Positions 4,300 to 45,359 of a DNA stretch of 64,000 nt are shown here, one piece after another. Position 1 is the stretch's first letter. Every line of letters starts with the position of its first letter. The position numbers and the translations under genes were made by a program. The notes under the pieces were generated by a model, which worked only from the letters and a program-made list of their open reading frames with translations, had not been told where the DNA came from and searched no databases. The DNA comes from Naegleria gruberi (taxonomy: Eukaryota), in NCBI GenBank assembly GCA_000004985.1, contig GG738932.1, one strand, 5' to 3'.

Positions 4300-6450
4300 A
4301 TGATTAGTCAAGTTTCGGCTGTTACGTCTGTACCATTCGAACAGAAGAGTAAAATACCAACACCTAAATACAATTATGTTAATATCATTCTAGACGAAAC
4401 AATTCAATCAGATTTATTAATCAAAAAGTTAAAATACCAAACCACAGAATTACAGCTCTTTCTAATACATTATCCTATTCTCGATTGGTTTCCTCTACAA
4501 ATGATAGGAACAAACACCAAACCTGGCCTTGATCGTTCCCAATTCACAGCCATTATCAAACATAGAATTGAACAGAACCACCAACTTATATCCAACATTA
4601 TTGGTTTGTGTGATTGTGACGACAAGTACAATTCATTCACTTCCATCCTGAAAATGCCAGATTTTAATGTGGATTGTAATTTGGAAGAGTTTGAAGAGCA
4701 AGCTAGAAAGCAACGTGTTAAAATGTTCTTGGCAGGGTTGTTGGAAGATAGGGATATTGCTTGGATAGCACTTGGTAGTAATTTTAAGTTTAGGCATATT
4801 TCGGATAGATTTAAGGAAGATTATCAAGTTGTTTTACAAGCTGTAAAATATGATACTAAAGCTTTTGAATTGGTTTCTGATAGATTTAAAGATGATGAGA
4901 GAATAGTTTTCGAAGCTGTTAGAAACTGTGGCAGCAATCTCAAATTTGCATCTGAAAGATTGAAAGACAATAACCAGATTATTCTAAAAGCCATCAAGAA
5001 GAATACATCAGCAATTATGTATGCCTCAAAGAGATTCAAAGATTACTTTGGCGAATTACTTTCTGATAGTGAGCTACTCCAATTAGAAAGATTTGAAAAA
5101 GATTCGTCTGATTTATTCTTCAACGAAGGGTTTGACAATGAACTGCTCATGTTAGAATTTGTCAAGTTAAATACAAGGTCTCTCAGAAAGGCATCCGATC
5201 GATTGAGGGATAATCAAACAATTGTGTTGGAAGCTATCAGGAGAAATGCCATGTCGTTGTGTTATGCATCTGACAGATTGAGAGATACTGAGATGGTTGT
5301 GATGGAAGCAGTTACACAAGAACCTCAAATGATGAAGTATGCTTCCAATAGATTGAAAGATAATAAGCAGTTTGTGTTGAAGATCATGAAATCATTGGGA
5401 TACTCGTATGATCTTTCTTTGGTTCAGTATTTATCGAAACTATTGCAAGATGATGAGCAAATTATTATAGAAGAAATCAAGAGAGACCAATCACCACTCT
5501 TTTTTGCATCTGAAAGGTTGCAAGACAATGAAGAAATTGTAATGAAAGCAGTCAACCAAAATGGAATGTCACTTTATTGTGCTTCCGAGAGATTGAAGGA
5601 TAATGAAAAGATTGTTTTGGAAGCGGTTCGAAATACTAGTGAAGCCCTTACTTATGCATCCAATAGATTGAAAGATAGTGAACTAGTTCTGATGGCAGCC
5701 ATTTGTCATGGTCGTTTGTGCAAGGCTCTTTCGTATGCTTCTGAAAGATTGCAAGATAACGAATTGATTGTTTTGGAATCTGTCAAGAAGAATGGGTCTA
5801 TGCTTGGATATGCATCTGATCGATTGAAATATCATGAACAAATTGTTTTGGAAGCAATTAAACAGGAACGATCATCAATAGAAAATATCACTTCTGCAAG
5901 ATTGAAAGATACTGAAACGATTATATTGGAATTGGTTAAGGATTCTACCATGAAACATGTACATAATCTGGAAATTGATGAATATGAGTTTCATTCCTCA
6001 GGCAGTGAAGTACGTTCTGATTTATTTAATGAATATTGTTCTGAAAGATTGAAAAACGATTCACAATTCATGTTAAAAGTATTGGCAAGCAAGTGGAGAG
6101 GTGGAATCGCACATGGACTTTCAGATAACAAGCAATTTATGCTTGAGGCAATTAAGCTCAATTGTTGGGCAATTGATTCAGCTTCCGAACAATTAAGAGA
6201 CGATGAAGAGGTTGTAAAGGCAGCTATTTCTCAAAATGGTAAAACTCTTCAATATGTTTCTGATAGATTGAAGAATGACATAACTATAGTCTCAAGTGCA
6301 GTGAAATCCTCAGTTGCCTCCTTAAAGTACATTGGTGAAAAGTTCAGAAATGTTGAATTTATTTGTTATTGCTTGGAGAATCAATTGATTTCTTCCAAAC
6401 CTTCAAATGTTGTTAAGGAAATACCATTCTTTGGAAATTTACATTTCTAA
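4300..6450 (+). CDS. DUF4116-repeat protein (~14 tandem ~36-aa repeats of the type ...IVLEAVKqNgxaLxYASeRLKDNe...)
   Basis: 716-aa intron-less ORF with highly periodic repeats carrying YAS.RLKD and IVLEAV signatures, which I recognise as the DUF4116 repeat family. The ATG at 4300 is preceded by an A/T-rich leader. Confidence 0.75.
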   Translation: MISQVSAVTSVPFEQKSKIPTPKYNYVNIILDETIQSDLLIKKLKYQTTELQLFLIHYPILDWFPLQMIGTNTKPGLDRSQFTAIIKHRIEQNHQLISNIIGLCDCDDKYNSFTSILKMPDFNVDCNLEEFEEQARKQRVKMFLAGLLEDRDIAWIALGSNFKFRHISDRFKEDYQVVLQAVKYDTKAFELVSDRFKDDERIVFEAVRNCGSNLKFASERLKDNNQIILKAIKKNTSAIMYASKRFKDYFGELLSDSELLQLERFEKDSSDLFFNEGFDNELLMLEFVKLNTRSLRKASDRLRDNQTIVLEAIRRNAMSLCYASDRLRDTEMVVMEAVTQEPQMMKYASNRLKDNKQFVLKIMKSLGYSYDLSLVQYLSKLLQDDEQIIIEEIKRDQSPLFFASERLQDNEEIVMKAVNQNGMSLYCASERLKDNEKIVLEAVRNTSEALTYASNRLKDSELVLMAAICHGRLCKALSYASERLQDNELIVLESVKKNGSMLGYASDRLKYHEQIVLEAIKQERSSIENITSARLKDTETIILELVKDSTMKHVHNLEIDEYEFHSSGSEVRSDLFNEYCSERLKNDSQFMLKVLASKWRGGIAHGLSDNKQFMLEAIKLNCWAIDSASEQLRDDEEVVKAAISQNGKTLQYVSDRLKNDITIVSSAVKSSVASLKYIGEKFRNVEFICYCLENQLISSKPSNVVKEIPFFGNLHF

Positions 6451-10743: not shown

Positions 10744-10816
10744 TGCTGACGGACGGGATCGAACCGGCGACCAATGGCTTATTAGACCAACGCTCTACCG
10801 ACTGAGCTACGCCAGC
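10744..10816 (-). tRNA. tRNA-Ile (anticodon AAT), 73 nt
   Basis: Reverse complement is GCTGGCGTAGCTCAGTCGGTAGAGCGTTGGTCTAATAAGCCATTGGTCGCCGGTTCGATCCCGTCCGTCAGCA. It folds as a cloverleaf with anticodon loop CTAATAA and T-loop TTCGATC, and resembles eukaryotic tRNA-Ile(AAT). Positions 27:43 (T.T) and 50:64 (C.T) are mismatched by my hand fold. A TTTT terminator lies 6 nt downstream. Confidence 0.6.
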
Positions 10817-11032: not shown

Positions 11033-13192
11033 ATGCCTAACCTTGAGACTCTGAAGGAGACAGCAAGATCGGAGCTTTGCGATATTCTTGATTCGGTTTG
11101 TTATCATCACATTTATTATAATAACACAAGCAATCGAACAATATTTGTTTATCAATCATCTCATCTTCAATTAAATAATATATTATTATTAATTAATTCA
11201 TCAACATTAACAACAAAATAATAGATAAACGGAGACAAGATTCTTGTCCTTGATGAACAATTAATTGGACCTCTTGGATTAGTTGCCCCTCTGGCACTTT
11301 TAAAAGAACTTGGAGTTAAAAAACTATTTAAATTGAATGATAGAACATTTGATACCAATTTTGCAAATATTGTCTATATTGTGAGACCAAAGATGCACTT
11401 GATGAAGTGGGTTGCTAATCAAGTATCCTACTGGGTCAAACAAAAAGAAGATTTAGATCGAATGATGTCGGAAAAGCTGAAGGAAAAGAAGAACACAAAA
11501 AACAAAAAGCAACAACCTGAAGAAACCAATGAAGAAACATATACACCACCAACCAATTTCCACCTCTATTTATTACCTAAAACATCATTAATTTGTGTTG
11601 ATATCTTGAAGGATTTGGGTGTTTATCCACATTTAAGAATTTCCGAATATCCTTTGGATTTAATTGTCTTTGATAATTATTTAATGTCTTTGGAACTTCC
11701 TTCATCATTCAAGGAATGCGAATTGGATGGTGATTTTTCATCACTGTATTATGTAGCACGATCTATTATGAAGTTACAATCCTATTTTGGTTTGATACCA
11801 AATGTTAAATTTATTGGATCGGGTGCAACACATGTCTCTGAAATGATCATGAGAATGAGAAAGGAAGTTGGTTCACAAGCTTTTGCTTCTGTTCCAGAAA
11901 TTAACACATTAATTTTGATTGATAGAAATGTAGATTTAATTACTCCAATGTTAAATCAATTTACTTATGAAGGAATGATTGATGAACTTTTGGGAGGTAT
12001 TACAAATACCTTGTTTACAACTCAACGTGTACCTGAAGCTGCTACTATTGCTAAAAAGATTGCCCTCAATTCTTCTGATAATGTTTTTAATCGTTTGAGA
12101 CATCTCAATCACAATAGAGCTGGTATTGCAATCAATGAAATGGCTATTGAATTTAAATCCAGAGAAGATAAGGCAAGAGAAATCAAAACATCAGATTCTA
12201 AAGTTTCCATTGAAAAGATCAAGGAAGTTACTAAAATGTTACCACAAATTCAAGAAGACAAAAAGTATTTGGAACTTCGTAAGTTTTAAATTTCATGCAA
12301 TTCGTTACTAACACACATCCAAGACACCAAAATGATGCTTGAAATTAGATCAATTATTGGAAAGGTTCCTTTCAGAAGATTAATTCAAACACAGAAGAAT
12401 GTTCTTGATGGTGAGGATGAAAAGGAAATTATCGAATATATTGAAGAAACAATTGACAAGCAATTACCACTTACCAACGTTCTGCGTGTCATTTGTCTCT
12501 ATTCACTAATTAATGGAGGTATTAAGAATAAGGTTTTTGAAAAATTGAGAAGAGAAATTATACAAAGTTATGGACTTCAAGCATTGCCAACTCTCAACAA
12601 TTTGGAAAAGATTGGCATGCTCAGAAAGCAAGACTCCAAGTCTGTCAGTAATTGGAATTTACTGAAAAAGACATTTAATCTTGTAGATGAAGCTGCAATG
12701 GAAAGAACCAACGAGGAAGATGGTCAATATGATCCTCACTTGGTTTACAATGTCTATTGTCCAATAACTGTTGCTCTTGTCGAACATGCCATGACTGAAG
12801 AAAAGGGATGGAGAAGAGTTGAACCTGTTTTGAGTAAGCTTGCTCCAGGCCTTTATGGAGAATTATCTCAAACAGGTTCCCAAGATACTCAACTCGGAAA
12901 GAAGGTTGTCTTGGTTTACTTTATTGGAGGTGTTACTTTTGCTGAAATCAGTGCCATTACCTACTTGAATGAAAGAAGTAACGATTGTGAATACATTATA
13001 GCAACAACCAAGCTCACTAATGGATCCACATTTTTGGAAAATCTTGTTGAGGAAATTCCTGAAGATAGACAATCATTCAAAAAGAAAGCAAGCAGCGATT
13101 CCTATGCCCTTTTCTACGAAGAGCCACCAAAGGAAGGTGCTGATGCTTCATCATCTTCTGGAACAGCCAAAAACGGTCAACAAGATGTGTAA
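11033..13192 (+). CDS. vps33: Vps33 (Sec1/Munc18-family HOPS/CORVET subunit), 3 exons, ~662 aa
   Basis: Exons 11033..11095, 11225..12278 and 12324..13192 are joined in frame. Intron 1 is gtttgt...aatag. Intron 2 is gtaagttttaaatttcatgcaattcgTTACTAACacacatccaag. The product (MPNLETLKETARSELCDILDS|INGDKILVLDEQLIGPLGLVAPLALLKELGV...) aligns along its length to human VPS33A: IDRNVDLITPMLNQFTYEGMIDE vs [23 protein letters not shown], and VVLVYFIGGVTFAEISAITYL...IATTKLTNGSTFLENL vs LIFFLGGVTFAEIAALRFL...IATTKLMNGTSWIEAL. The TTG start at 11333 in the ORF track is an artefact. Confidence 0.8.
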
Positions 13193-13638: not shown

Positions 13639-16600
13639 ATGAAACAACAGCTACACGTTAATGGCCGCTTGCTGATTATTTCAGTTGTGCTGGCATTATT
13701 TCTAGTAATGACAGGTTGTGTTGCAGATATTGTGCAAGTGACACCTCAGAATCCACTGCTTGATATGATTAGTTGGAATGATAAGGATGAAATATGGTTT
13801 GCCCAATCGTGTCCTCTCACTGGATCCAACAGTCGGTAAGTTTCGAATATATTTTCTTTCCTGACTAATGGAAATAGTCTTGGAATTGAAATGAGAAATG
13901 GCATCCTTGCTGCATTCCATGAAATCAACTCTATTGGGGGTGTTTGGGGCTCAAAGAAACTCAAATTGCTCTCACTCGATGATAATTATGATCCAGTGAG
14001 CACTTTACAAAATACAAATTACTTTCTTTACAATATTACTCCACCAAATACTTCACTGAATTATGCAAATGTGTTTTCAAGTGGTAAATATGAAGATAGA
14101 AATGTCAATGATGTGAAAGTTTTTGGATTGTTAGGATATGTCGGCACGCCAACTGTCCAAGCAGTTTATTCTGATGTTGTGGCAAAGAATGTACCACTTG
14201 TAGCTTCTTTTACAGGAGTTGGTTGGTTGAGATATTCTCCATTCTATTCAAATGTCATTAATCTTAGAGCTTCCTATGATGATGAGACAGCTGCCATGAT
14301 TGACTATCTCATTAACGAAAAACTAATTAGAAGAATCTCTGTATTCTACCAAAATGACAGTTTTGGACTTGCTGGATTGAGCGGAGTCCAACGTTCCCTA
14401 GTCAACTATCTCAATATCCCTATTCGTTCCACATCTTACTATACAAGAGGAACACTAAATGTGGAAAATGCATTTCAGGAAATTGGAGCGGGAAAACCAG
14501 CTGCAATTATTTGCATTGGAACTTTTGCTCCCATTGCCAAGTTTATCAAGATGGTAAAAGATTTGGCCTTCAATTCAACTGCCAATCAATACGGTTATGA
14601 GAAACCGAGCGAAATTATTTTCATGACTTTGAGTTTCGTCAGCTCAGGAGCTCTCATTGAAAGATTAAACTCCTTCAGTTTACCTTCGAATAACTATGGC
14701 AATTCGTATTACATTGACAATGTAGTCATCACACAAGTCGTCCCCAGCCCTTTCAATCTCTCAATTCCAATAGTGAGATCCTATCAGAATGCAAGAAGAT
14801 CCTATCTACTAGCCAACGATCCATCCTCTTACAATTCCTTCACTCCCTCCTTTATAGAATTGGAAGGATACATGGCGGGAAGATTGGTTTTTTCGATATT
14901 TCAGAAAATGGTTGGAAATTTAACGAGATCCAACTTTATTGCAACGAATTATTTTGGAGGGAATAGGTTGGGAACTGATATTGGGGATTCGTCATCGACT
15001 GGTGACAGTTCAGGAGGTGTTTCACTTGTGGATGGGATTAGGGTAGGTCCGTATCGTTGGTGTGAAAGTGTCAATGTCATGGATTTGAATTTACCATATG
15101 CGGATAAGATTTCATTGAATGTTTCGGCACTTTCGAATACTACTTGTTCTAATTTTAATTGTAATCAAGGTTTGAAAGTTGTTTACAAAAGTTCAGCTCA
15201 AATTGAAAACTCTAAAATTTCATTTTCTATTTTAGGGAATAGTTTTTCATGGTATGATTACAAGGGAGGTATTTATTGCATTTCAGATCCTTCACTTGTT
15301 AAGAAACCTCTCATTTTCGGTCAATCAATCTATTCGAATAAGGACTATACTGAAGAACTAATGCTGAGAAAAGGAATTTTAATGGCCTTTACCATATATA
15401 ACCAAGGATTGTCAAGTTCTGATTCCAAATTAGAACTTTTAACACAATATCACTCAAATAAGGATGAATTAATTTCGAATACAAAGGAATTCATTGAAAC
15501 TCATGATGCACTTGCTCTGGTTGGCTATTCGACAGATCACTTTTCGTTGGTAGAAAGTAGTGGAAAGATCAATATTGCAACTAATCCACAATTTGCAAAC
15601 ATTTCCTTGATTGGAGGTGCTTCAACTATTAATTCAATGAAATTAAGAAATCCATTCACAAGGAATATCATTCACGCACATTCGTCCATTTTCGAACAAT
15701 TGGCAACGATTGTGGAATATTCAATGAATCAAGAAGCATCTTCAAGGTTTTCAATTATTTACAGTAAGAGAAATGAAGATTCATTTGCAGCTTTTGGATT
15801 ACTCAATCAAATATTGACTGCTTTGGGTTTAGTTTTAGATTCTTCTGCATGTATTGATGGTTCGAATAGTTATTCATATGCCAGTATAGATTCAATTGTT
15901 GATAGTTTGAGATATAATGGTTCTAATCCTCAAGTTGTTATATTTGCATTCCCATCAAATGTCGATGTAGTTTCGTCCTTGATTGGAGCTTTCCAAACTA
16001 CTTATCAGAATTCACCAAAATTTGGTCGAAACTTGGATATTGTTTTGATGAATTCCTTCTTTTCCCTTAATGCAGAATACGAAATGAAAGATTGGCTCGC
16101 TCAAAATTACAAGAGTTTCTTCAAAGTTTCGTTTGTTTCTCATTTAGATTCGGTTTATTCATCCTCACAACTTTCCATCGTCAAATTCATTCAAACCATG
16201 AAGAATTTCTTCCCAAACGATTATTCCAACTCAACTACCCTCTATCACAACAAAGTTTTGGAAGGATTTTATATTGGAAACTTGATTACCTCTATTCTAA
16301 TCAATATTGATTCAGGTTTGACTTCAAAGGAAGTATTGCAAACTATTTATGATGTCAAGAGTTTCATTTCTCAGCAAACGACATATGGTCCCTTCAGTGA
16401 AGATGGTTGCAATGTTGGTATTCGTCAAAATTATGTTTTCACATTCGTTTCGAATAGTTTCTCCAAAGTTTATACGAAAAGTTATGATTCAGGTTGTGGA
16501 TTATTGGCAAGCTCTGTTGAGACAGCCATCAAATCATACATTAACACGCCATTACTATTTGGATATCTAGCTCCCTATAGAAAAATTGGAAATTCTCAAA

Positions 16601-19332
16601 TTGAAAGACAATTAGACTTGTTGAGCCAGGTTTCAGATTTGGACACTTCTGGTCATACTCAATTTTCTAAGGGTCTATCCACCTATTTTAAAAAAATTAC
16701 TCAGAAATTCAATAATGGATATTCCTCTAAAAATATTCAACTTGTTATTGAATATTATAGTACTGATGAGGAGAAATTCAATCTTCCAAATAAGGTAAAT
16801 TCCTTGATTGACAAAAATAGAGTTTTTGCAATTATTGGATCAGAATTTATTTTTACTTCATCTGATATCAGTAGAGAATTTGATTCTATCAGATCCACCC
16901 TCGAAACAAAACAAATTCCTTGGATTAACAGCTATTCAGGTTCCATGGAATTGAGAAAACCGTACACTCCTTATTTTGTCAATGTTGGACCATCTGTCGT
17001 TGATCAAGCCATTTCATTCTTTAATTATTTCAAACAGAATGGAACTGTCAACTTGGCTCTTGTTTATGAAAATGATCCATTTTATACTAATATGGCAATT
17101 AGTGAAATTGTTGAATATTGTAGAATTGAATCCATTCCAATAAGTTTCACTCAGGGAGTTTATAATACATCGATAGCTGATCAAATTATTTCATTGTTTT
17201 CGAATGCAAGAATTGAGAAGGATGTGGCAATTATGGTTTTGGCAAGAGATTCGAATAGTGCTTCGATTATTAAGCATTCAATTCTTGCTGCTCAGAAATT
17301 GAACATTGATAAGAAACTCTATTTTGGTATTTTGATTGAAAATAGTGGAAGGATATTCGAACAATCTCTTGTTTCCACTTCTGACCTTTCATATTGGATT
17401 AGTTCAATTTCAGGTTCTTCCCTTTCAACTTTGTCCCAATCTGTTTTAAATGGAGTGAAAGAAGGTAAGCTAGTAATGGCTAGCTCAATGGATTCTCCAT
17501 TCCATGACTTTTCTGGTTCAGATAGCGCCTCTTTCGTCCAATTATTCAAAACCGAAACTATTTCATACTTTGATTCCAATATTAATCATTTAACATTTGA
17601 AGGTTACTCGCTTGGCCACTTTATCGATATTCTCATCACCTCCATTGAACAAGCAAAGAGTATTTCAGGTCAAACCTCAAACATTACCCCTTCAGATTTA
17701 TTGAACTCCATTTATAGTAATACCGTCTTTGATTTGAACATGAAAAAAGTTGGCCCAGTTGGATATGCCTGCTCCAATACCACAACAGCAAGTACAACTT
17801 GTGATTCTTCCACTTCCTTGGGCTGTTCCTGTAATGAAGGAGCTAAAAAAGTTGTCTTATCAACTCTAACAAGTCAACCAACTGTGAATTCTTCCGCTCT
17901 CTTCAAATATTCCAATACTATCTCAACCAATACCTTTGGAACATGTGGTTTGGTTGCTGTTGTTCCTTCTCTGTCTGTTGTTGCCATTGTCATGATTGTC
18001 CTTTCAGGTATTGCCTTCCTCCTTCTCATAACAATCATTCCAATACTTTCGTATAGATATTATGTAGCAAGAAATGCCATCAAACACGCTCCTAAATCAA
18101 AGAATGGTAAATTAGCTTGTTGCTTTACCGATATCCAAAACTCGACTGTCTTGTGGCAATCCAATGAGAAAGCCATGAGAGAAGCTTTGATCATTCACAA
18201 CCAAATTATGAGAAAGAATCTCGATCTATGTAATGGATTTGAAGTCAAGACACAGGGTGATTCATTCTTTGTGGTTTTCAAGAATCCAACTGATGCCTTA
18301 GATTGGTGTGTCTCTGTCCAACATGATTTGTTGACAGCCAAGTGGCCATCTGATTTATTGGGATTGTGGGATTGTAGACCGGAGTGGGATAATGCAACTA
18401 AGGAAATAATTTGGTCAGGAGTGAGAGTTAGAATGGGACTTCATTATGGAGCTGCGGAATATGTCTTTGATAAGGTTGTGAAAAGACCGGACTATTTCGG
18501 AACTTGTGTAAATACCTCCGCAAGAGTTGAGAGTGTGGCTATTGGTGGACAAATATTGGTTTCTGAGGATTTCTTATTGGAAACATGGAAAACAAACAAG
18601 TGCCGATTGTATTCCTTTATCAAATTCCTTCAGGGAAATAACAACTCGTACGTGAGTGAAATCATGACTGGATTGACCTTACAGGAGGAACAGAATGATA
18701 AGGACATTGTCTCAGTTGGAGGATCCAGTCATAAGAGTTCTGAATTATCGAGAAATTCCATCTCATCCAGGAATTCCTCAGTTAGCTCAGCACAAGCTTA
18801 CGATCTTTCAGATCCAAATCAAGTTACAAAGAGGAAGCGAACAAGACATGCACGTGGTTGGAGATATTTAGCTGAAGACATGGGAGAATTCACATTGAAA
18901 GGTTTGGAAGGAACAACAAGACTTTTCCAAATCAAGTCAACCATCATGGCCAAGAGAAATTATCCAGCATTGAAGAGTGTGACTGTAGCTTCATCATCTA
19001 AACCATTGTTGCTATCTCAACAAAGTGCTGCAGTTTTTGGTTTGAATGGTCAATCATCTAGCAATAGCGTGACTCAGGATAGTAAGGCATTTAGAACACT
19101 CATGACAAGAACGAATACTCAATCTTTTAGAACAGTTCCAGATCAACAGATTTATCAGAGTTATCAGGAAGATGGTATGGAGAAGGGACCACAATCAATT
19201 CCACCACAGTCTACTGTTGCAAATCCAGAAATTCCAATGGATTCAGATTTTGAAGTGTCCAGATTTAAAAAGAATAGAATTGTACCAGTAATTACAACAA
19301 CAAGTGAGAATGAGACAAATGAGGAGGAATAA
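13639..19332 (+). CDS. Receptor-type class III nucleotidyl cyclase: signal peptide, two PBP1/ANF-receptor-like ligand-binding domains, one TM helix, cyclase homology domain, Ser-rich tail (~1,880 aa, 2 exons)
   Basis: Exon 1 (13639..13835) encodes the signal peptide MKQQLHVNGRLLIISVVLALFLVMTGCVA.... A 42-nt intron gtaagt...ctgactaatggaaatag spans 13836..13877. Exon 2 (13878..19332) follows in frame. Ectodomain motifs LGIEMRNGILAAFHEINSIGGVWGSKKLKLLSLDDNYDP and a second LRKGILMAFTIYN... unit are typical of Leu/Ile/Val-binding (PBP1/ANF receptor) folds. The TM helix is LVAVVPSLSVVAIVMIVLSGIAFLLLITIIPIL. The cyclase domain immediately follows the TM and carries CCFTDIQNSTVLW, KTQGDSF, VRMGLHYGAAE, YFGTCVNTSARVES and GGQILVSE. 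There is no kinase-homology domain. Confidence 0.8.
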
Positions 19333-19377: not shown

Positions 19378-19449
19378 GGGGACCAGTGGGAATCGAACCC
19401 ACGGCCTCTCGCACCCAAAGCGAGAATCATACCACTAGACCATGGTCCC
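19378..19449 (-). tRNA. tRNA-Pro (anticodon TGG), 72 nt
   Basis: Reverse complement is GGGACCATGGTCTAGTGGTATGATTCTCGCTTTGGGTGCGAGAGGCCGTGGGTTCGATTCCCACTGGTCCCC. It is near-identical in its core to canonical eukaryotic tRNA-Pro(UGG), with anticodon loop TTTGGGT. A T-rich terminator (tttccttttaaa) lies immediately downstream. Confidence 0.8.
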
Positions 19450-19829: not shown

Positions 19830-22800
19830 TTAGAAGGCAGCAGAAACCAATACAATAATCACCATCAAGAGCATATTCATTCCAATAGAACAAGCACCAG
19901 AAACAATAGAACTTCTTGGAATGACAGTATTATTACTTGCTGAAGGTGAAATTGGAGTAGTTGAAGTGCCTGGTTCTGGAACAGTATCTTGTCCTGATCT
20001 TACTTCATTGGTTACATCAAAGAATAGAGAGGCCATCTTCAATGGATCAACATCTGGATTAGCAGAAACACCACAAGATGAAACAGAATCCCAGGTCTTA
20101 ATTTCACTTGAAGTGATATATCTGGATGTCTCTTCAGTGCCTTGATCTCCAACGAAACGAATATTATCGAGGATCATTTCTCTGTATTGTCCATTGTTGT
20201 TTAAGGAGAAGGCAAATCTACTGAATGGTTGAACTCCTTGGAATCCCAAATCAGTGAGAGGATATCTAACTCTGGTAACACGAGTGTCATCAATCTTGTA
20301 GTGTTGAATGTAGGTTGCATTGGTTGTAATACCTCTACCAATGGTAATGAAAGCCTTGGATGTAGTATTGTACCAAGCAAAGGCCAAGTTCAAATCAATG
20401 GATCCAGAGCTATTGGTTCCCTTAATGAAGAATTCAAAGTATTTGAAAATACTGGTATCCACATTGACAACTGAACCTCTGTAAAGTTGGAAACCTCCCT
20501 TCTTGAGTCCAAAGTAATAAGAAGAATTACCACAAATTGGATTGAATGGATAGGTAATGTTGGCAACGTAGTAATCAGGACTAGCTCCAGCATATGGACC
20601 ATTGGTGAATCCAGTTGACTTGAAAGTAGCTCCTTCATCATACAATGTAATAACTTCAGAAGCATTCTTGACAGTACATGGAGAAGTGATTGGAACTGCT
20701 GGTGGCAAATTACATTTACCACTACAGTACAATTGAGCTCTCAAGTGACCTGTTGGATTTTCAATACTGGAAACCTTTACGAAAATTCTTCCCTTCAACA
20801 AGTCAACCCATTCTCCATAAGACAATTGCAAACCAAATCTACTTTGAGAATATGGAGATGGAACATAGTTATAGTGATCATTCTTTCAACAGAACCAGGA
20901 GCACCGACACCAACTTCAACCAAAGTAGCCCTATTATTCATATTGTGATGGAGAACAATATCCAATAATCTGTCATTATAATTGAGGAAGGCAAAAACTG
21001 AACCAACAGCTTGGGAAGAACCAGAAGCCAATGGAGAAACAGCAGCTTGTTGACACATTTCCAAACGACCTACAAATCTATCTTCCTTCATGTAAACTCT
21101 ATAAGTTTCTCTTGGATTTGATGGAAGACTTTGGGTGGCTCCACAATAATCATTTGGACAAGTGGCTGTAACATTGATTGCAGCTGAACTACCATAATTA
21201 CCATAATCAACAAAGCCATACCATTCCTTCTTACCACTCTTGGAGTTGGTATTCTTCAACTTGATATAAAAGTGACCAGTTGTGGCATTGAAATAATAAC
21301 ATTGTGTTGGGAAGTTAATGACATCTTCCAGAGAGTCACATAAATTGAGAGTTTTTGGATCGTTACTACTTGTTACACTGAATGTAGTACCAAGTGGATA
21401 TTGAGCAACAAAAACAGCCCAATCACCAGCACCAGATGATTGCATATTCAAATTCATTGGATTTGGAGGTGGAAGATCCCAGTTAAACTTGATAGAATAG
21501 AAACCACGAGCTGGAATGTTTGCCTGCATGGCAAAGTCGCCTCCACTGGATTGGACACCTGACACTGTACCTTGAATACCTCTCAAGAGATCAGTGAGTA
21601 TTAATCTCGGAACTCTCTTTGAATTATCCTTAAAATCAGGATGTGAAACACCATTTGGATCGATAATTACTGAAGAAGAAATGTTATAATTAGTTACTCT
21701 TAATTGGAAGTATGATTCTCCCATCAATGGACAAACTGAAGCATTATTCCAGTCATATCTTGTGATACAACCTTCAAAGTTTTGAATTGGGTCAGTACCA
21801 CTAATCCAAGCACCAGCTTCTACACCAGTGATTGAACCATCGATATCCATGAGAGCAGCACCCTTGTGATTTTCATAAGTGACAGTATCCAAGAATACTC
21901 TTTGGGGCGAGTTTTCAAACTTTAAATCACAATATCTATTTCTAGTATGGAGTCTGAAGAAGTTATCAAGGACTGACAAACAACCAGCTCTCTTATACTT
22001 GTCAGTGACAAAGTTTCTGAAAGTGACATTTCTCAATAATTCAGCACCACCATTATCATAAGTTTCATAACCCTTAATAACAGTAGTGGTTGAGTAGTAA
22101 GCATTTGGTCTTGTTCTATTACCAATATCAACAGATGGTCTCAAAGTATAATCACCAACATTCTCAGATTCAGCAATCATGATAGAATCAGTAATGTATG
22201 AAGTACCAGGTGGAGAGTTCATTTGTCTCATATTATCAGTCAAGTACAAGTTTTTGAAAACAATATTACCACAACGAGCCCAAATACCATAACCTCTCAT
22301 TTTGTAAGCAGTAAAGTTATCAATTAGTGCTTCAATAGCTGGATAATAACCTGCCAATTCAGTTGTACCATCAGATTTTTCCATATCGTCAATGAATAGA
22401 CCATTTTGACCACTGTGAGCTACATTTCCTGAAAATGGCTTTGGAGGAGCAGTTCTAGGATTGATAGAACCTGGAGCATACAGGGAGGCACTTGCACCTG
22501 TTGGGAATGTTGGCATTCTAAAGTAAAATTTAAACATTAACTATGAACAAATTGTAATAACTTACGTAAACCAAAAAGAATGCTTTCCACCCATTGCATG
22601 GTTATCAACGAATGTATTGTTTGGATTAGTAATCCAAAAAACAGCAACATCACTGTCAGATGGAATTAAACGATATGCCAAATCATAAACTGGCTTTGGA
22701 CGAATTCCCAAATTATGTTTGAAAACATTTCCGACTTCAGAACCATCTTCCAAAAAGTAACAGTGACCATTGGCATTGAAGCAGACATTATCTTGAAGCA

Positions 22801-23857
22801 AGAAATAATTGGTATCGTGAACAACGTAACATCTTTGGAAAGAGTCATGAACTGAACATCCCTTGATATAATATTGAGTACCCAAAGCAGTACCTTGAGC
22901 AGTATTTTCCAAAAGGTGAAGATGGAATGAGTATCTTCCCATCAAACCATATTGACCAAACTTTCTAATTTCAATACCTTCAACTTGGAATTGAGTAACC
23001 AAACGAACCATGAAATGACCACCGAATTGAGAAGCATCAGATGAATTGTCACCTTGGAAGACAATTCTTCTAGACAATAAACCAACTTCTGGCTTGATCT
23101 TGTTACCATCGCTGTAGTGAGTGTAATTGAGTGGAGCATCCAAGACAATAGTCTTTCCGCCATCTAAAACTTGAGTAATAATACGCTCTTCATTTTGATC
23201 TGGGAATTTAACACCTCTAGCCCAACCAATTAATGAAGAAGTTACTTTGGTATAGTCAAGTAATTCACCATAATCTGAGGTAGCAATAACAATAGAATCA
23301 CCAACTCTCCAAGAAACACTTTCGCTCAACTTGATTTGATTAGAACCCTTGACAGCAGTAACAGCCAGATCAGTAAATGTTGGATAATCAACTTGACCAA
23401 AGATTTGTACCTTTGATCCAGAGAGGAAACCAATACCCTTTGAGCCCATGTTAACGTTATCAAATGGATCTGTTCCAATATCATTCTCAGTAGTACGAGC
23501 GCCATAGAATGTCAACACAATTTTGCTAGTAATTGGACATGTGGCACTTCCCATGATCCAGCTAGCGCCTGATTCCACTCTAATAAAATCAACATTCAAA
23601 GTCAAGTTGGTATTATCGAAAATTAGAGAACCACCATTCAAAACGGTTATGGAACGAAGCTTGTTTGGTGGAGATTTGTCAACCTTGACAGCTGTGCTAA
23701 TAGTAATTTGACTATCAGCAACAGAGAATCCAGTAACACTGGAAAACAATGTTAAACCTTGTGCATCTTGTGGACAATTGGTTTGACAATTTACCAAACC
23801 AACTACCAACAGGATAAAGAATACTAAACCTGTCAGTACTCGCTGCTTGTTGGACAT
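19830..23857 (-). CDS. Large secreted G8-domain plus right-handed beta-helix protein (CEMIP/TMEM2/fibrocystin-like) with Ser/Thr-rich stalk and GPI-anchor-like hydrophobic C-terminus; ~1,340 aa
   Basis: Three track ORFs belong to one gene. Exon 1 is 23857..22566 (signal peptide MSNKQRVLTGLVFFILLVVGLVNC, then a G8-like Gly-spaced block LNGGSLIF...VESGASWIMGSATCPITSKIVLTFYG, then GRYSFHLHL as in G8/PbH1 proteins). An intron at 22565..22518 (gtaagttattac...ttttactttag) splices in frame onto exon 2 starting at 22517 (...HSFWFT|MPTFPTGAS...). A +1 frame change falls somewhere in 20795..20890 before the last ~340 codons, which end SIVSGACSIGMNMLLMVIIVLVSAAF* (GPI-signal-like). Confidence 0.7.
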
Positions 23858-30797: not shown

Positions 30798-30999
30798 TTT
30801 TTAATTTGTGCTTTATCAATTCTGGCATTTACAATTGTTTACAAGATTCCCTGTTGAATATTGATATAACTTTACAGTTTACCTGGTTTTTTCCGGTTTA
30901 CACTTGAATTTGGTCGAGACACTTTAACTTTTATATAAGATGGATACCATAAGATAGAACCTTAGATAGTCGTTGTGTATTTTATGATACATATGTATT

Positions 31000-31083
31000 C
31001 CGGTGATAGCTCAGCTGGTAGAGCATGGTACTGTAGTTGTAACAGTTCTCCCGTGGTCGGCGGTTCGAGTCCGTCTCGTCGGA
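31000..31083 (+). tRNA. tRNA-Tyr (anticodon GTA) with an ~11-nt intron 3' of the anticodon
   Basis: The 5' half CCGGTGATAGCTCAGCTGGTAGAGC..ACTGTAG matches the canonical eukaryotic tRNA-Tyr 5' half, which is CCTTCGATAGCTCAGCTGGTAGAGC in human. The T-arm is GGCGGTTCGAGTCCGTC and the acceptor is CCGGTGA/TCGTCGG+A. An inserted ttgtaacagtt (about 31037..31047) pairs with the anticodon loop (CTGT/ACAG), as pre-tRNA-Tyr introns do. A TTATTTTGGCTATTTTGG Pol III terminator follows directly. The anticodon stem has one mismatch in my hand fold. Confidence 0.6.
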
Positions 31084-32453
31084 TTATTTTGGCTATTTTG
31101 GTCAAATTGAGTTAAAAATATTAAGGATGGTTCAACACATATTTCAATCCAATTGCTGAAAATTATCCAACTTCCATCCTTATTTTTGTAAACTTTATTT
31201 AATGATAAGAAAAGGATGAAGAAGTTTATCATTATCTATGGCAATTCCTTTTATTGATTCTCCGAGAAGGAATATTCCAAAACAACAGCATATCTCAATT
31301 TCATGTATTTTTCAGATTCGAATCTTTGTATACAAAGATTTCATTCCAAATCACCGGTGATGAGATTTTTTCGAACCACTACAGTTTTATTGTAATCACA
31401 GTAGATCAAAACTGTAGATCAAGTTTAGGTGATTGTATAATTTGATCAGAGTCAATTTAGGAAAACTTGTAATATGAATAAGAAGAAATTAAACGAATGG
31501 TGGCGAAACATACTTTTAAGAACCTGTAAGGCCTCCATATGGTTAGATCATCTAACTTGTAGATTTTGCTTCCTGTTGTTTCGAATCGTCCAATGTAATT
31601 CGTTCAGAATAGTCTAAAACAAATTCTAAATTGGTAATATTCCACATCCGAAGATTTTACATAGAATGGAACAATATCACAACAATCAACTCATCTTGAA
31701 GTAATTTACCCTTTTCGATCAATCGTTACATTTTCGAATAGTGCCATTGCTGTTTCTAATAGTTTAATTTCATGTACTTCTATGTATTTTTTAATCGGTC
31801 AAGGAATACATTTCACGATCATCCTCAATCTCCAAATTTCATCAATTCTGTACATTGTCCTTTCCAACAAAGTTTCGAATGGCATTATCGAACGAAAGAA
31901 AAAATTTTGAAATCTCCATTGAAATCCTGAAAGAGAAACTTTCTACATTCGAAAAGTTGCCACCTCACACTTCTATCCTCAAATCATGTATTCAAAATTG
32001 CATCCTTTTCATTAAATTCTAAACCAGACGAAACCATTCCCTCAAATCCTACTCAATTATACAAAACGAAATCGTTTCAGTCAACCAACTCTACTCTCCT
32101 TTTCAAGATCTTTCCAATTCTCCAAAACCAGCATCACAGGTTCATTTCAATTTTGTTCATTTTACAATTTATCAAATTTTCCCAAAAACCTTCCAGTCAG
32201 GCCTCTAAATAGTTGAAAACATTTTTCTGCATCTAGCTGTATCCACTTCCAATCTCGTCCAATCGCTCCTTTTTCATCCAAGAGTCCAAACATTACTGTC
32301 GCACTGGTTTTTTTCGTTACACCGCTTTTTATTTGTACTATGGTGATTCTCGAATATACTAGCTGATTCTCCATAACATTCATGAACAATGACATGAATA
32401 TACGAGCTAGAGTAGTGAGGGAATGGAGGAATGCATAAGAAGACAACAACACC

Positions 32454-45127: not shown

Positions 45128-45359
45128 NNNNNNNNNNNNNNNNNNNNNNNNNNNNNNNNNNNNNNNNNNNNNNNNNNGATCACATCAACTTTTTATGACC
45201 CAGTGAATTTGTCAATTGGGCACAAATTCGTGGAGCTGTCCAAACAGAAACTAAAGAAACAGCAAAGCCTATTCCAGTTGTGTGATCTTTCCACATGATC
45301 TCAGTTCATAATAGACACAAGAAAACACAATGCTAATAATAAAAATATAATTTTATTTA

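What the first reader, a model, noticed from the sequence alone, without database searches (positions are those of the whole stretch)
13639..19332. Receptor-type nucleotidyl cyclase with a double PBP1/ANF-receptor ectodomain fused directly to a class III cyclase domain
Architecture: signal-peptide exon, a ~1,300-aa ectodomain with two periplasmic-binding-protein type-1 modules, a single TM helix, a cyclase catalytic domain directly after the TM with no kinase-homology domain, and a long Ser-rich tail. This matches neither metazoan receptor guanylyl cyclases (which have a KHD) nor the 12-TM adenylyl cyclases. The Lys in VKTQGDSF sits where adenylyl cyclases carry the purine-specifying Lys (guanylyl cyclases have Glu), so cAMP synthesis is suggested. 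A ligand-gated cAMP or cGMP sensor with an amino-acid-type binding fold would be a novel signalling receptor worth characterising.
Basis: partly seen in the sequence, partly recalled or inferred. Interest (0 to 1): 0.6.

Follow-up and report, generated by a model that had tools for sequence, protein, structure and literature searches.

The report
Naegleria triple-flytrap receptor adenylate cyclase
This is a real Naegleria gruberi gene for a single-pass membrane receptor with three bacterial-type ligand-binding "Venus flytrap" modules outside the cell and an intact cAMP-making enzyme inside; it belongs to the receptor-type adenylate cyclase family already known from trypanosomes, so it is an uncharacterised variant of a known receptor, not a new kind.

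Summary
The gene is real and sits at the stated coordinates. Exon 1 is 13639-13835, a 42-nt GTAAGT..TAG intron follows (13836-13877), and exon 2 is 13878-19332, giving 1,883 aa. The window is Naegleria gruberi.

Confirmed:
- a signal peptide;
- one TM helix;
- a class III cyclase domain 18 residues after the TM, with no kinase-homology domain;
- all six catalytic residues, with the Lys/Asp (ATP) pair.

Corrected:
- The ectodomain holds three PBP1/Venus-flytrap modules, not two.
- The Ser-rich stretch is mainly a roughly 85-aa insertion inside the cyclase domain; the last two catalytic strands follow it.

The novelty claim fails. Two-flytrap/TM/cyclase receptors without a kinase-homology domain are the well-known trypanosomatid receptor-type adenylate cyclases (ESAG4/GRESAG4). 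The best PDB matches of this catalytic domain, by sequence and by fold, are GRESAG4.3 and GRESAG4.1.

Most likely function: a dimerisation-activated, homodimeric adenylate cyclase controlled by its ectodomain. The strongly conserved distal flytrap is the probable ligand site; the ligand is unknown.

Verdict: an uncharacterised heterolobosean variant of a known family. Interest is modest.

The parts
13639..13835 (+). Exon 1: start codon, signal peptide (aa 1-28 = 13639-13722) and the first residues of flytrap module 1. It ends after 2 nt of codon 66.
   Evidence: The hydrophobic core is aa ~10-26. The exon is conserved in L001. It is absent from the deposited model, which starts at M71.
13836..13877 (+). 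Intron, 42 nt, GTAAGT...TAG.
   Evidence: Among the frame-restoring GT..AG combinations, this is the one whose product aligns without gaps to homologs. The splice sites are conserved and the interior has diverged in L001.
13878..19332 (+). Exon 2, running to the TAA stop (19330-19332).
   Evidence: The ORF from 13891 is identical to N. gruberi XP_002669075.1.
13789..15060 (+). Flytrap module 1 (VFT1/M1, aa 51-460; spans the intron). It is membrane-distal and the best conserved module.
   Evidence: Peripla_BP_6 1.5e-20 and ANF_receptor 2.5e-6. PDB 4kv7 at E 2.3e-34. 54-57% identity to Naegleria homologs. dN/dS 0.079 against L001.
15061..15297 (+). Cys-containing CNQG element and linker after module 1 (aa 461-539).
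   Evidence: A CNxG motif follows every module here (aa 494, 910, 1384) and in the two-module euglenozoan-type cyclase P0019. C461, C494, N495, G497 and C533 are invariant.
15298..16500 (+). Flytrap module 2 (VFT2/M2, aa 540-940, including its CNVG beta-hairpin).
   Evidence: No Pfam hit reaches threshold. Even so, hhalign to M1 gives E 1e-38. The AF2 model has pLDDT 80 and pTM 0.84, and its top Foldseek hits are LIVBP-type binding proteins and class C GPCR flytraps.
16537..17946 (+). Flytrap module 3 (VFT3/M3, aa 953-1422, including CSCNEG and the conserved TCG before the membrane).
   Evidence: The best ANF_receptor stretch lies here. hhalign gives M2~M3 8e-30 and M1~M3 3e-17. It is collinear with the second module + TM + cyclase of P0019 (BLASTP 2.5e-31).
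17977..18054 (+). Transmembrane helix (aa 1433-1458).
   Evidence: The only strongly hydrophobic stretch apart from the signal peptide: Kyte-Doolittle maximum 3.0, windows starting aa 1418-1445. Six Lys/Arg follow it within 18 residues (aa 1459-1476). The AF2 model shows a helix continuing to aa ~1466.
18055..18108 (+). Juxtamembrane linker of 18 aa with the conserved APK motif. No kinase-homology domain or coiled coil.
   Evidence: A1470 and P1471 are invariant in heterolobosean and euglenozoan-type sequences. Trypanosoma sequences carry the same APK spacing.
18109..18600 (+). Cyclase catalytic core (aa 1477-1640). Residues and codons: D1484 (18130-18132), K1523 (18247-18249), D1527 (18259-18261), D1604 (18490-18492), N1611 (18511-18513), R1615 (18523-18525). 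Also contains a shortened Delta-subdomain-like loop.
   Evidence: Guanylate_cyc 4.6e-17. 1fx4/1fx2 at E 2.6e-25 and 4.7e-24. All six residues are invariant. Codons verified. Foldseek top hits are 1fx4 and 1fx2.
18601..18852 (+). Heterolobosean-specific insertion inside the cyclase domain. It comprises a structured strand + helix (aa 1641-1679) and a disordered loop with 29% Ser that ends in a basic patch (aa 1680-1724).
   Evidence: Absent from trypanosomatid sequences and present in Naegleria/Willaertia homologs. In the AF2 model pLDDT is 82-94 for the first part and about 40 for the loop. Composition.
18853..18939 (+). Last two catalytic-domain strands, beta7/beta8 (aa 1725-1753), including the LKG motif (K1740).
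   Evidence: Aligns to the LRG...YQL region of GRESAG4.1/4.3. High pLDDT strands in the model. G1735 is invariant.
18940..19329 (+). C-terminal tail (aa 1754-1883) with the conserved KNRIVPVI motif (19270-19293).
   Evidence: Conservation is low except for the motif, which recurs near the C-terminus in the N. gruberi paralog P0002, N. lovaniensis and N. fowleri, and as NIVVPIV in Willaertia; L001 carries KNRIVPVM.

Best explanation
The gene encodes a type I membrane receptor-type adenylate cyclase of Naegleria gruberi. It belongs to the same family as the trypanosomatid receptor-type adenylate cyclases (ESAG4/GRESAG4).

Shown here:
- A cleavable-looking signal peptide.
- Three tandem PBP1/Venus-flytrap modules, each followed by a Cys-containing CNxG hairpin.
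- One TM helix, then an 18-residue linker with a conserved APK motif.
- A complete class III catalytic domain carrying all six catalytic residues in one chain: metal-binding D1484 and D1527, adenine-specifying K1523 and D1604, and transition-state N1611 and R1615.

Inferred from established class III cyclase mechanism and from trypanosomal enzymes:
- The enzyme is inactive as a monomer.
- It makes cAMP only when two chains form a head-to-tail catalytic dimer with two symmetric active sites. Each site uses the metal Asp residues of one chain and the Lys/Asp/Asn/Arg of the other.
- The ectodomain sets the proximity and orientation of the two TM helices, and so of the catalytic domains. The very short linker couples them directly.

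Inferred more weakly:
- The membrane-distal flytrap (module 1) is the ligand-binding site for a small, still unknown solute. It is far better conserved than modules 2 and 3 and close to a bacterial solute-binding protein.
- Modules 2 and 3 act mainly as relay or dimerisation modules.
- The Ser-rich disordered loop inserted in the catalytic domain and the C-tail are sites of cytosolic regulation, for example by phosphorylation.
For: - Gene model and identity.
- Purifying selection against a related Naegleria contig: dN/dS 0.16 overall; 0.08 (M1), 0.15 (M2), 0.22 (M3).
- Domains: Pfam. Three homologous modules by hhalign, E 1e-38 to 3e-17. The M2 model folds as a LIVBP-type flytrap. M1 matches PDB 4kv7 at E 2.3e-34.
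- Catalytic domain: best PDB sequence matches are T. brucei GRESAG4.3/4.1 at 2.6e-25 and 4.7e-24. They are also the best fold matches, E 4e-16, TM 0.78.
- The six catalytic residues are invariant across heterolobosean, euglenozoan-type and Trypanosoma sequences.
- Collinearity with a two-module euglenozoan-type cyclase, P0019 (PF25493 at 3.7e-43). M1 aligns to its first module (1.9e-35). The C-terminal half of M3 plus TM plus cyclase aligns to its second module plus TM plus cyclase (2.5e-31). CNxG follows every module in both proteins.
- Literature: trypanosomatid receptor cyclases have two VFT domains, one TM, a class III CHD and a variable C-tail. They are activated by CHD dimerisation, and forced dimerisation raises activity more than 20-fold (PMC6027212; PMC10470820).
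Against: - No enzymatic or expression data exist for this protein.
- No ligand is known for any member of the family, trypanosomal ones included (PMC6027212). In trypanosomes activation is seen with acid, osmotic or proteolytic stress rather than a defined ligand.
- Pfam's trypanosomatid-derived ectodomain model PF25493 scores below its threshold on this protein (23.5 against 27.2 bits).
- The Delta-subdomain is only about half the trypanosomal length.
- I could not retrieve a full-length trypanosomatid sequence, so ectodomain homology to trypanosomatids is shown only through P0019.
- The roughly 85-aa insertion in the catalytic domain might affect dimerisation in ways not seen in solved structures.
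- In a related Naegleria contig the cyclase core is missing. If that deletion is real, the cyclase is dispensable in that strain.
Confidence: 0.78

Rival explanations
1. Same enzyme, but not ligand-gated. The flytrap modules no longer bind a small molecule and serve as a structural or dimerisation scaffold. Activity is set by membrane, pH or osmotic stress, or by cytosolic phosphorylation of the Ser-rich loop and tail.
For: No ligand has been found for trypanosomatid receptor cyclases, and these respond to acid, hypotonic and proteolytic stress (PMC6027212). Modules 2 and 3 are too diverged to reach Pfam thresholds on their own and evolve faster (dN/dS 0.15 and 0.22). A disordered Ser-rich loop and a tail with a conserved motif exist on the cytosolic side.
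Against: Module 1 is under strong constraint: dN/dS 0.08, and 54-57% identity across paralogs and species against 27-36% for M2/M3. It keeps close similarity to a bacterial solute-binding protein (4kv7, E 2.3e-34), including the loop motifs GTPT, FTG and QNDSFG. That is what an intact binding cleft would predict.
Confidence: 0.25
2. It is a receptor guanylyl cyclase (makes cGMP) rather than an adenylate cyclase.
For: The Pfam family PF00211 covers both activities. Sources name a homolog 'guanylate cyclase domain-containing protein'. Specificity cannot be proven from sequence alone.
Against: The specificity positions are Lys1523 and Asp1604, the adenylate pair. Both are invariant with GRESAG4.1/4.3 and align to the K and D of Ma1120, whose K/D/A-to-E/G/Y mutant is the GTP-converting variant listed in the PDB. 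The closest solved relatives are all adenylate cyclases.
Confidence: 0.05
3. It is a pseudo-cyclase or decaying gene: a receptor-like protein whose cyclase domain no longer works.
For: A syntenic contig from a related Naegleria (L001) lacks the 766 nt that encode aa 1468-1723, with a frameshift. The catalytic domain is interrupted by a roughly 85-aa insertion.
Against: In the window the ORF is intact over 1,883 codons. All six catalytic residues and the beta7/beta8 strands are present and invariant. The catalytic model is confident (pLDDT 84) with the insertion looping out. The insertion is conserved in position in N. gruberi paralogs, N. lovaniensis, N. fowleri and Willaertia. In L001 the tail behind the deletion is still an intact, conserved ORF, which suggests a very recent event or an assembly artefact.
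Confidence: 0.04
4. One reading: a new class of ligand-gated cyclase receptor unrelated to any known receptor-cyclase family.
For: It lacks the kinase-homology domain of metazoan receptor guanylyl cyclases and the 12 TM helices of G-protein-regulated cyclases. No paper in the searchable library mentions this gene or links Naegleria to receptor-type adenylate cyclases.
Against: The same plan defines the trypanosomatid receptor-type adenylate cyclases (PMC6027212, PMC10470820). These are the closest solved relatives, and a euglenozoan-type member is collinear with this protein. Many public proteins share the plan.
Confidence: 0.03

Closest known systems
Trypanosomatid receptor-type adenylate cyclases (T. 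brucei ESAG4/GRESAG4.x, T. cruzi TcAC; catalytic domains PDB 1FX2/1FX4)
   Same: - Type I topology.
- Extracellular tandem PBP/Venus-flytrap modules, each followed by a CNxG element.
- Single TM.
- A short APK-containing linker leading straight into a class III catalytic domain.
- All six catalytic residues in one chain (homodimeric type), with a Lys/Asp pair.
- An extra loop at the Delta-subdomain position.
- A variable C-terminal tail of roughly 110-130 aa.
- Best sequence and fold match of the catalytic domain.
(PMC6027212.)
   Different: - Three flytrap modules instead of one or two.
- The Delta-subdomain loop is about 16-17 residues shorter than in T. brucei.
- A roughly 85-aa insertion (structured strand + helix, then a Ser-rich disordered loop) sits between helix alpha5 and strand beta7.
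- The distal module is strongly conserved, whereas trypanosomal ectodomains are described as highly variable (PMC6027212).
- The host is a free-living heterolobosean.
- Pfam PF25493 scores below threshold on this protein.
Metazoan receptor guanylyl cyclases (e.g. the ANP receptor NPR-A/GC-A)
   Same: Extracellular PBP1/ANF-type flytrap, single TM, C-terminal class III cyclase, dimer-dependent catalysis (PMC6027212).
   Different: - No kinase-homology domain or coiled-coil dimerisation segment; 18 residues separate the TM from beta1.
- Three flytraps instead of one.
- A Lys/Asp (ATP) pair instead of Glu/Cys (GTP) at the specificity positions.
Bacterial LIVBP-type periplasmic solute-binding proteins (Peripla_BP_6; e.g. 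PDB 4KV7 from Rhodopirellula baltica) and roughly 770-aa tandem versions in bacterial metagenomes
   Same: Each ectodomain module has this fold. Module 1 matches 4KV7 at E 2.3e-34 and the M2 model matches 4kv7/4m88/4n0q. Bacterial binding proteins of 767-783 aa, long enough for two modules, hit the family profile at about E 1e-140.
   Different: These are soluble or lipid-anchored transport components with no TM or cyclase. The ligand of 4KV7 is not given, so no ligand can be transferred.
Green-algal flytrap-kinase-cyclase receptors (e.g. Chloropicon primus 'guanylate cyclase', P0017)
   Same: PBP1 ectodomain plus a class III cyclase in one chain.
   Different: They carry a protein-kinase or kinase-homology domain between the membrane and the cyclase (PF07714/PF00069). 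This protein has none.
Dictyostelium adenylate cyclase G (ACG)
   Same: A membrane sensor cyclase with an extracellular sensor domain and one class III catalytic domain. It is described as structurally homologous to Trypanosoma receptor cyclases (statement in PMC9928731, citing Saran and Schaap 2004).
   Different: From my own knowledge, not tested here: its sensor is a CHASE domain and it acts as an osmosensor, not a PBP1 flytrap array.

Membership tests
Trypanosomatid-type (Discoba) receptor-type adenylate cyclase | N-terminal signal peptide and a large extracellular domain built of PBP/Venus-flytrap modules | tested here: met
   Signal sequence. Three modules. The literature describes one or two modules, so the count differs (PMC6027212, PMC10470820).
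Trypanosomatid-type (Discoba) receptor-type adenylate cyclase | Single transmembrane helix separating the ectodomain from the catalytic domain | tested here: met
   One hydrophobic stretch, core aa 1433-1458, followed by a basic juxtamembrane segment.
Trypanosomatid-type (Discoba) receptor-type adenylate cyclase | Class III catalytic domain directly behind the TM (short APK linker), with no kinase-homology domain | tested here: met
   18-residue linker. A1470 and P1471 are invariant and aligned with the APK of Trypanosoma sequences. No kinase Pfam hit.
Trypanosomatid-type (Discoba) receptor-type adenylate cyclase | Catalytic domain closest to GRESAG4.1/4.3 among solved structures | tested here: met
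   phmmer gives 1fx4 at 2.6e-25 and 1fx2 at 4.7e-24; the next hit is Ma1120 at 1.4e-10. Foldseek ranks 1fx4 and 1fx2 first.
Trypanosomatid-type (Discoba) receptor-type adenylate cyclase | All six canonical catalytic residues in one chain (homodimeric enzyme) with the Lys/Asp ATP-specifying pair | tested here: met
   D1484, K1523, D1527, D1604, N1611 and R1615 are invariant in alignments A1 and A3. Codons checked.
Trypanosomatid-type (Discoba) receptor-type adenylate cyclase | Delta-subdomain: a 36-residue two-helix insertion in the alpha3-beta4 loop | tested here: inconclusive
   An insertion is present at that position. It is about 18 residues longer than Ma1120 but about 16-17 shorter than T. 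brucei. The model shows short helices and a hairpin there. It may be a reduced version.
Trypanosomatid-type (Discoba) receptor-type adenylate cyclase | Ectodomain matches Pfam PF25493/PF25495 (adenylate-cyclase PBP-like domain) | tested here: inconclusive
   23.5 bits against the 27.2-bit cut-off on this protein. P0007 passes (36.5 bits). PF25493 is also among the precomputed Pfam hits listed for P0001, P0003 and P0008, whose scores and thresholds are not shown. The two-module P0019 scores 3.7e-43 and is collinear with this protein.
Trypanosomatid-type (Discoba) receptor-type adenylate cyclase | cAMP synthesis activated by dimerisation of the catalytic domains | not testable with these tools
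   Needs an enzyme assay. Inferred from residue conservation and PMC6027212.
Metazoan receptor guanylyl cyclase | Kinase-homology domain and coiled-coil segment between the TM and the cyclase | tested here: not met
   No Pkinase/PK_Tyr_Ser-Thr hit. Only 18 residues lie between the TM and beta1.
Metazoan receptor guanylyl cyclase | Glu/Cys GTP-specifying residues | tested here: not met
   Lys1523 and Asp1604 occupy those positions.
G-protein-regulated 12-TM adenylate cyclase | Two six-helix membrane cassettes and two complementary catalytic domains (C1/C2) | tested here: not met
   One TM besides the signal peptide. One Guanylate_cyc domain.
Periplasmic binding protein type 1 / LIVBP-like (Peripla_BP_6, ANF_receptor) | Bilobed alpha/beta flytrap fold with a significant profile match | tested here: met
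   M1: PF13458 at 1.5e-20 and 4kv7 at 2.3e-34. M2: hhalign 1e-38 to M1; the AF2 model hits LIVBP-type structures at E 2e-15 with TM 0.6-0.75. M3: best ANF_receptor stretch and hhalign 8e-30 to M2.
Periplasmic binding protein type 1 / LIVBP-like (Peripla_BP_6, ANF_receptor) | Binding of an amino acid or other defined solute in the cleft | not tested
   No coordinates are available for pocket analysis, and the closest structure (4KV7) has no stated ligand. The 'amino-acid-type' label refers to the fold only.

The most novel reading that the evidence does not exclude
Receptor-type adenylate cyclases are not a trypanosomatid peculiarity but an ancestral Discoba sensor. In the free-living Naegleria lineage the membrane-distal flytrap of this three-module version is a slowly evolving, genuinely ligand-binding sensor for a defined small solute, for example a nutrient or prey-derived compound. 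If so, this protein could be used to find the first ligand for a receptor family whose ligands in trypanosomes have stayed unknown for decades.
Probability: 0.25. Interest if true: 0.55.

Novelty: new variant of a known kind. Interest (0 to 1): 0.3.

Why it matters
- A review calls receptor-type adenylate cyclases 'a hallmark of trypanosomatids' (PMC6027212). A clear relative in Naegleria, with orthologs in N. fowleri, N. lovaniensis and Willaertia, shows the plan also occurs in the sister lineage Heterolobosea. It comes in one-, two- and three-flytrap versions.
- The ligands and the gating mechanism of the trypanosomal enzymes are unknown, and their ectodomains evolve fast. Here the distal flytrap is strongly conserved (dN/dS 0.08) and close to a bacterial solute-binding protein. 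That makes it a more tractable object for ligand screening.
- The deposited N. gruberi gene model lacks the signal-peptide exon, so automated topology predictions for this protein will be wrong until it is corrected.
- None of this overturns current understanding. The finding is an uncharacterised variant of a known family.

Tried and rejected
- **Full-length trypanosomatid sequence.** I searched with the GRESAG4.1 catalytic sequence. Only fragments of 305 aa or fewer came back, so the ectodomain comparison rests on P0019, a two-module protein with a strong PF25493 match.
- **Fold search against the AlphaFold database.** I wanted named trypanosomatid ectodomain matches for the M2 model, but that library is not installed.
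- **Literature.** Three searches found nothing: Naegleria + 'adenylate cyclase' + 'periplasmic binding', Naegleria + 'receptor-type adenylate cyclase', and the gene's accession numbers. The Naegleria pangenome paper only counts cyclases.
- **Acrasis hypothesis.** The short intron at the signal-peptide junction suggested the window might be Acrasis kona. This was rejected: four window ORFs are exact N. gruberi proteins.
- **N-glycosylation sequon density as topology evidence.** No enrichment in the ectodomain (1.15 against 1.42 per 100 aa), so it was not used.
- **Segment-wise Pfam scan.** It did not give a significant hit for module 2. hhalign and structure prediction were needed.
- **My first hand count of the intron.** It was off by one and suggested a frameshift. 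The script resolved it.
- **Rfam and tRNA scans.** They found only three tRNAs and nothing inside the gene.

Full report
**Observation.** The region holds one long + strand ORF (13891-19332, 1,813 aa), preceded by a 66-codon ORF from 13639. A script listed every GT..AG pair that joins the two frames without a stop. The pair 13836-13877 (42 nt, GTAAGT...TAG) gives a 1,883-aa product. Across the junction that product reads ...EIWFAQSCPLTGSNSR|LGIEMRNGILAAF... and aligns without gaps to homologs from N. gruberi, N. fowleri and Willaertia. A syntenic contig from a related Naegleria (L001, about 81% nucleotide identity) has the same start codon, hydrophobic leader, GTAAGT donor and TAG acceptor, and a diverged intron interior. 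The coordinates, the signal-peptide exon and the 42-nt intron are therefore confirmed as far as sequence can show.

**Source and database status.** The 1,813-aa ORF is identical to XP_002669075.1 / EFC36331.1, locus NAEGRDRAFT_75988, UniProt D2W3L8, a 'predicted protein' of Naegleria gruberi. Three other ORFs in the window are also exact N. gruberi proteins. The spliced 1,883-aa sequence is not in the collection. So the public model starts at Met71 and lacks the signal peptide. No paper in the searchable library mentions the gene.

**Anatomy.**
- Hydropathy shows a leader (aa ~10-26) and one further strongly hydrophobic stretch (windows starting aa 1418-1445). I place the TM core at aa 1433-1458. 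Six Lys/Arg follow it within 18 residues.
- Pfam gives Peripla_BP_6 (1.8e-21), ANF_receptor (4.3e-13) and Guanylate_cyc (4.6e-17), and no kinase domain.
- The ectodomain is about 1,400 aa, long enough for three PBP1 modules. I cut it at aa 29-480, 481-950 and 951-1422 and built profiles from the homolog alignment. The three parts are mutually homologous over 307-355 columns: M1~M2 E 1e-38, M2~M3 E 8e-30, M1~M3 E 3e-17.
- Module 2 fails Pfam thresholds on its own. I modelled it with AlphaFold2 (pLDDT 80, pTM 0.84). The model's best PDB matches are LIVBP-type binding proteins (4kv7, 4m88, 4n0q; E about 1e-15, TM 0.6-0.75), followed by mGluR, GABA-B and sweet-receptor flytraps.
- Each module is followed by a Cys-containing CNxG element (aa 494, 910, 1384).
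- The ectodomain is therefore a triple flytrap, not a double one.

**Catalytic domain.**
- The cytosolic part begins 18 residues after the TM with ...HAPKSKNGKLACCFTDI.
- Its best PDB sequence matches are the T. brucei receptor-type adenylate cyclases GRESAG4.3 (1fx4, 2.6e-25) and GRESAG4.1 (1fx2, 4.7e-24), well ahead of Mycobacterium Ma1120 (1.4e-10).
- Six residues are invariant in alignments with heterolobosean, euglenozoan-type and Trypanosoma sequences (codons checked). They are the metal-binding Asp (D1484, D1527), the purine-specifying Lys and Asp (K1523, D1604) and the transition-state Asn and Arg (N1611, R1615).
- After GGQILVSE the chain departs from the trypanosomal sequences for about 85 residues, then returns with ...RYLAEDMGEFTLKGLEGTTRLFQIKS. 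That segment aligns to the last two strands of GRESAG4.1/4.3.
- An AlphaFold2 model of aa 1455-1775 (pLDDT 84, pTM 0.80) shows the first 39 residues of the insertion as a confident strand plus helix. The next roughly 45 residues are disordered (pLDDT about 40, 29% Ser). Strands beta7/beta8 are confident. The model's top fold matches are again 1fx4 and 1fx2.
The real tail (aa 1754-1883) has ordinary Ser content, 14.6% against 13.1% overall, and carries a conserved KNRIVPV motif.
- At the Delta-subdomain position (36 extra residues in trypanosomes; PMC6027212) this protein has a loop of about half that length.

**Relatives.**
- Full-length homologs at 36-41% identity occur in N. gruberi (two paralogs), N. 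lovaniensis, N. fowleri and Willaertia magna.
- Willaertia also has 863- and 889-aa relatives carrying Peripla_BP_6 and the cyclase domain, short enough to hold only one flytrap.
- P0019, a 1,235-aa protein from a metagenome, has a strong match to Pfam's adenylate-cyclase PBP-like domain (PF25493, 3.7e-43). That domain also appears on partial Trypanosoma cyclases.
- P0019 is collinear with the window protein. Its first module matches M1 (BLASTP 1.9e-35). Its second module + TM + cyclase matches the C-terminal half of M3 + TM + cyclase (2.5e-31). CNxG follows each of its modules.
- An exhaustive HMMER search used aa 1176-1640, which spans the back half of module 3, the TM and the catalytic core. 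It found 453 clusters at E <= 1e-30. At least 15 of the best 150 align in one stretch across the membrane. Seven of them were checked by Pfam and all have PBP modules plus a cyclase, at lengths of 963-1,572 aa.
- The plan is therefore widespread in public data, mostly unnamed.

**Comparison with what is known.**
- Reviews describe the trypanosomatid receptor-type adenylate cyclases as follows. They have an extracellular domain of about 90 kDa with two Venus-flytrap/PBP domains, one TM helix, a class III catalytic domain with the Delta-subdomain, and a variable C-terminal region of about 110 residues. Their ligands are unknown. Activation requires dimerisation of the catalytic domains, and a leucine zipper raises activity more than 20-fold (PMC6027212; also PMC10470820).
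- The Naegleria protein differs in four ways. It has a third flytrap, a shortened Delta loop and an insertion in the catalytic domain. Its distal module is also strongly conserved: 54-57% identity between paralogs and species, against 27-36% for modules 2 and 3. dN/dS is 0.08, 0.15 and 0.22 for M1, M2 and M3.
- It is not a metazoan-type receptor guanylyl cyclase. It has no kinase-homology domain, and Lys/Asp replaces Glu/Cys.
- It is not a 12-TM cyclase.

**Mechanism.**
- Shown here: topology elements, three flytraps, a complete catalytic residue set, and the closest kinship to trypanosomal adenylate cyclases.
- Inferred from the established mechanism of homodimeric class III cyclases and from the trypanosomal enzymes: two chains must pair head to tail to form two active sites. 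Each site combines the metal-binding Asp residues of one chain with the Lys/Asp/Asn/Arg of the other. The ectodomain controls that pairing through the TM helix and the very short APK linker.
- Inferred more weakly: module 1 is the ligand site, given its conservation and its E 2.3e-34 match to the bacterial binding protein 4KV7, including the loop motifs. Modules 2 and 3 relay the signal or hold the dimer. The Ser-rich loop and the tail are cytosolic regulatory sites.
- The main rival is that no small ligand exists and that activity follows membrane, pH or osmotic stress, as observed for trypanosomal enzymes.

**Surroundings.**
- Upstream on the same strand is a Sec1-family gene in two ORFs (11333-13192).
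- Downstream on the opposite strand are a tRNA-Pro(TGG), 46 nt after the stop codon, and a G8/CEMIP-like gene (19830-23857).
- Nothing suggests a functional link. ORFs on the minus strand inside the gene are short (100 aa or fewer) and have no support.

**Verdict.** The finding is a real, intact and selectively constrained gene, and most of its domain reading was correct. It is an uncharacterised Naegleria variant of the receptor-type adenylate cyclases known from trypanosomatids, not a new class of receptor. New information from this analysis:
- the third flytrap module;
- the in-domain insertion;
- the missing signal-peptide exon in the public gene model;
- the strong conservation of the distal module.

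Interest is modest (0.3).

Noticed in passing
window 18083-18848; L001 5223-5226: A syntenic contig from a related Naegleria (Logan SRR25266747, about 81% nt identity) lacks exactly the 766 nt that encode aa 1468-1723, the whole cyclase core plus the Ser-rich insertion. This causes a frameshift. The junction shows only CA/TGCACG microhomology, and the tail behind it is still an intact, conserved ORF. It could be a recent deletion or allele, or an assembly artefact.
   Followed up: partly
window 13639-13890: The deposited N. gruberi model (XP_002669075.1, NAEGRDRAFT_75988, D2W3L8) starts at Met71 (13891). It omits the signal-peptide exon and the 42-nt intron, and the spliced 1,883-aa product is absent from the protein collection.
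   Followed up: yes
window 19270-19293: A short motif, KNRIVPV(I), lies about 15 residues from the C-terminus. It recurs near the C-terminus in the N. gruberi paralog P0002, N. lovaniensis and N. fowleri, and as NIVVPIV in Willaertia; L001 has KNRIVPVM. The tail is otherwise poorly conserved. It may be a targeting or interaction motif.
   Followed up: partly
window 19378-19449 (- strand): A tRNA-Pro(TGG) gene lies 46 nt downstream of the cyclase stop codon, convergent with it. It is 97.6% identical in L001, while the flanking DNA is about 80%.
   Followed up: no
window 10744-10816 (-) and 30999-31084 (+): A tRNA-Ile(AAT), and an 86-nt tRNA-Tyr(GTA) that is longer than usual and probably carries an intron.
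   Followed up: no
window 11333-12289 and 12332-13192 (+): Two adjacent ORFs match the front and back halves of the Sec1 family profile (1.2e-46 and 2.2e-40). This is probably one Sec1/Munc18-type gene split by a short intron.
   Followed up: no
window 19830-23857 (-): Three consecutive minus-strand ORFs carry G8, a CEMIP beta-helix, a weak CEMIP_X match and a C-terminal hydrophobic segment. They are probably one multi-exon gene for a secreted or membrane CEMIP-like protein.
   Followed up: no
window 4300-6450 (+): A 716-aa ORF made of nine DUF4116 repeats (E 3.6e-109).
   Followed up: no
proteins P0025-P0038: Bacterial and metagenomic 'ABC transporter substrate-binding proteins' of 767-783 aa, long enough for two PBP1 modules (one named Desulfobacterales), hit the receptor-cyclase profile at about E 1e-140. 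They could be a source or a parallel of the tandem-module arrangement.
   Followed up: no
proteins P0074-P0083: The top hits of the exhaustive search are proteins of 1,400-2,300 aa that match the query in three to five separate stretches. They may carry several cyclase domains; their architecture was not examined.
   Followed up: no
window 45128-45177 and 46343-64000: There is a 50-N gap, and from 46343 the window is only N. Just 46.3 kb of the window is real sequence.
   Followed up: yes
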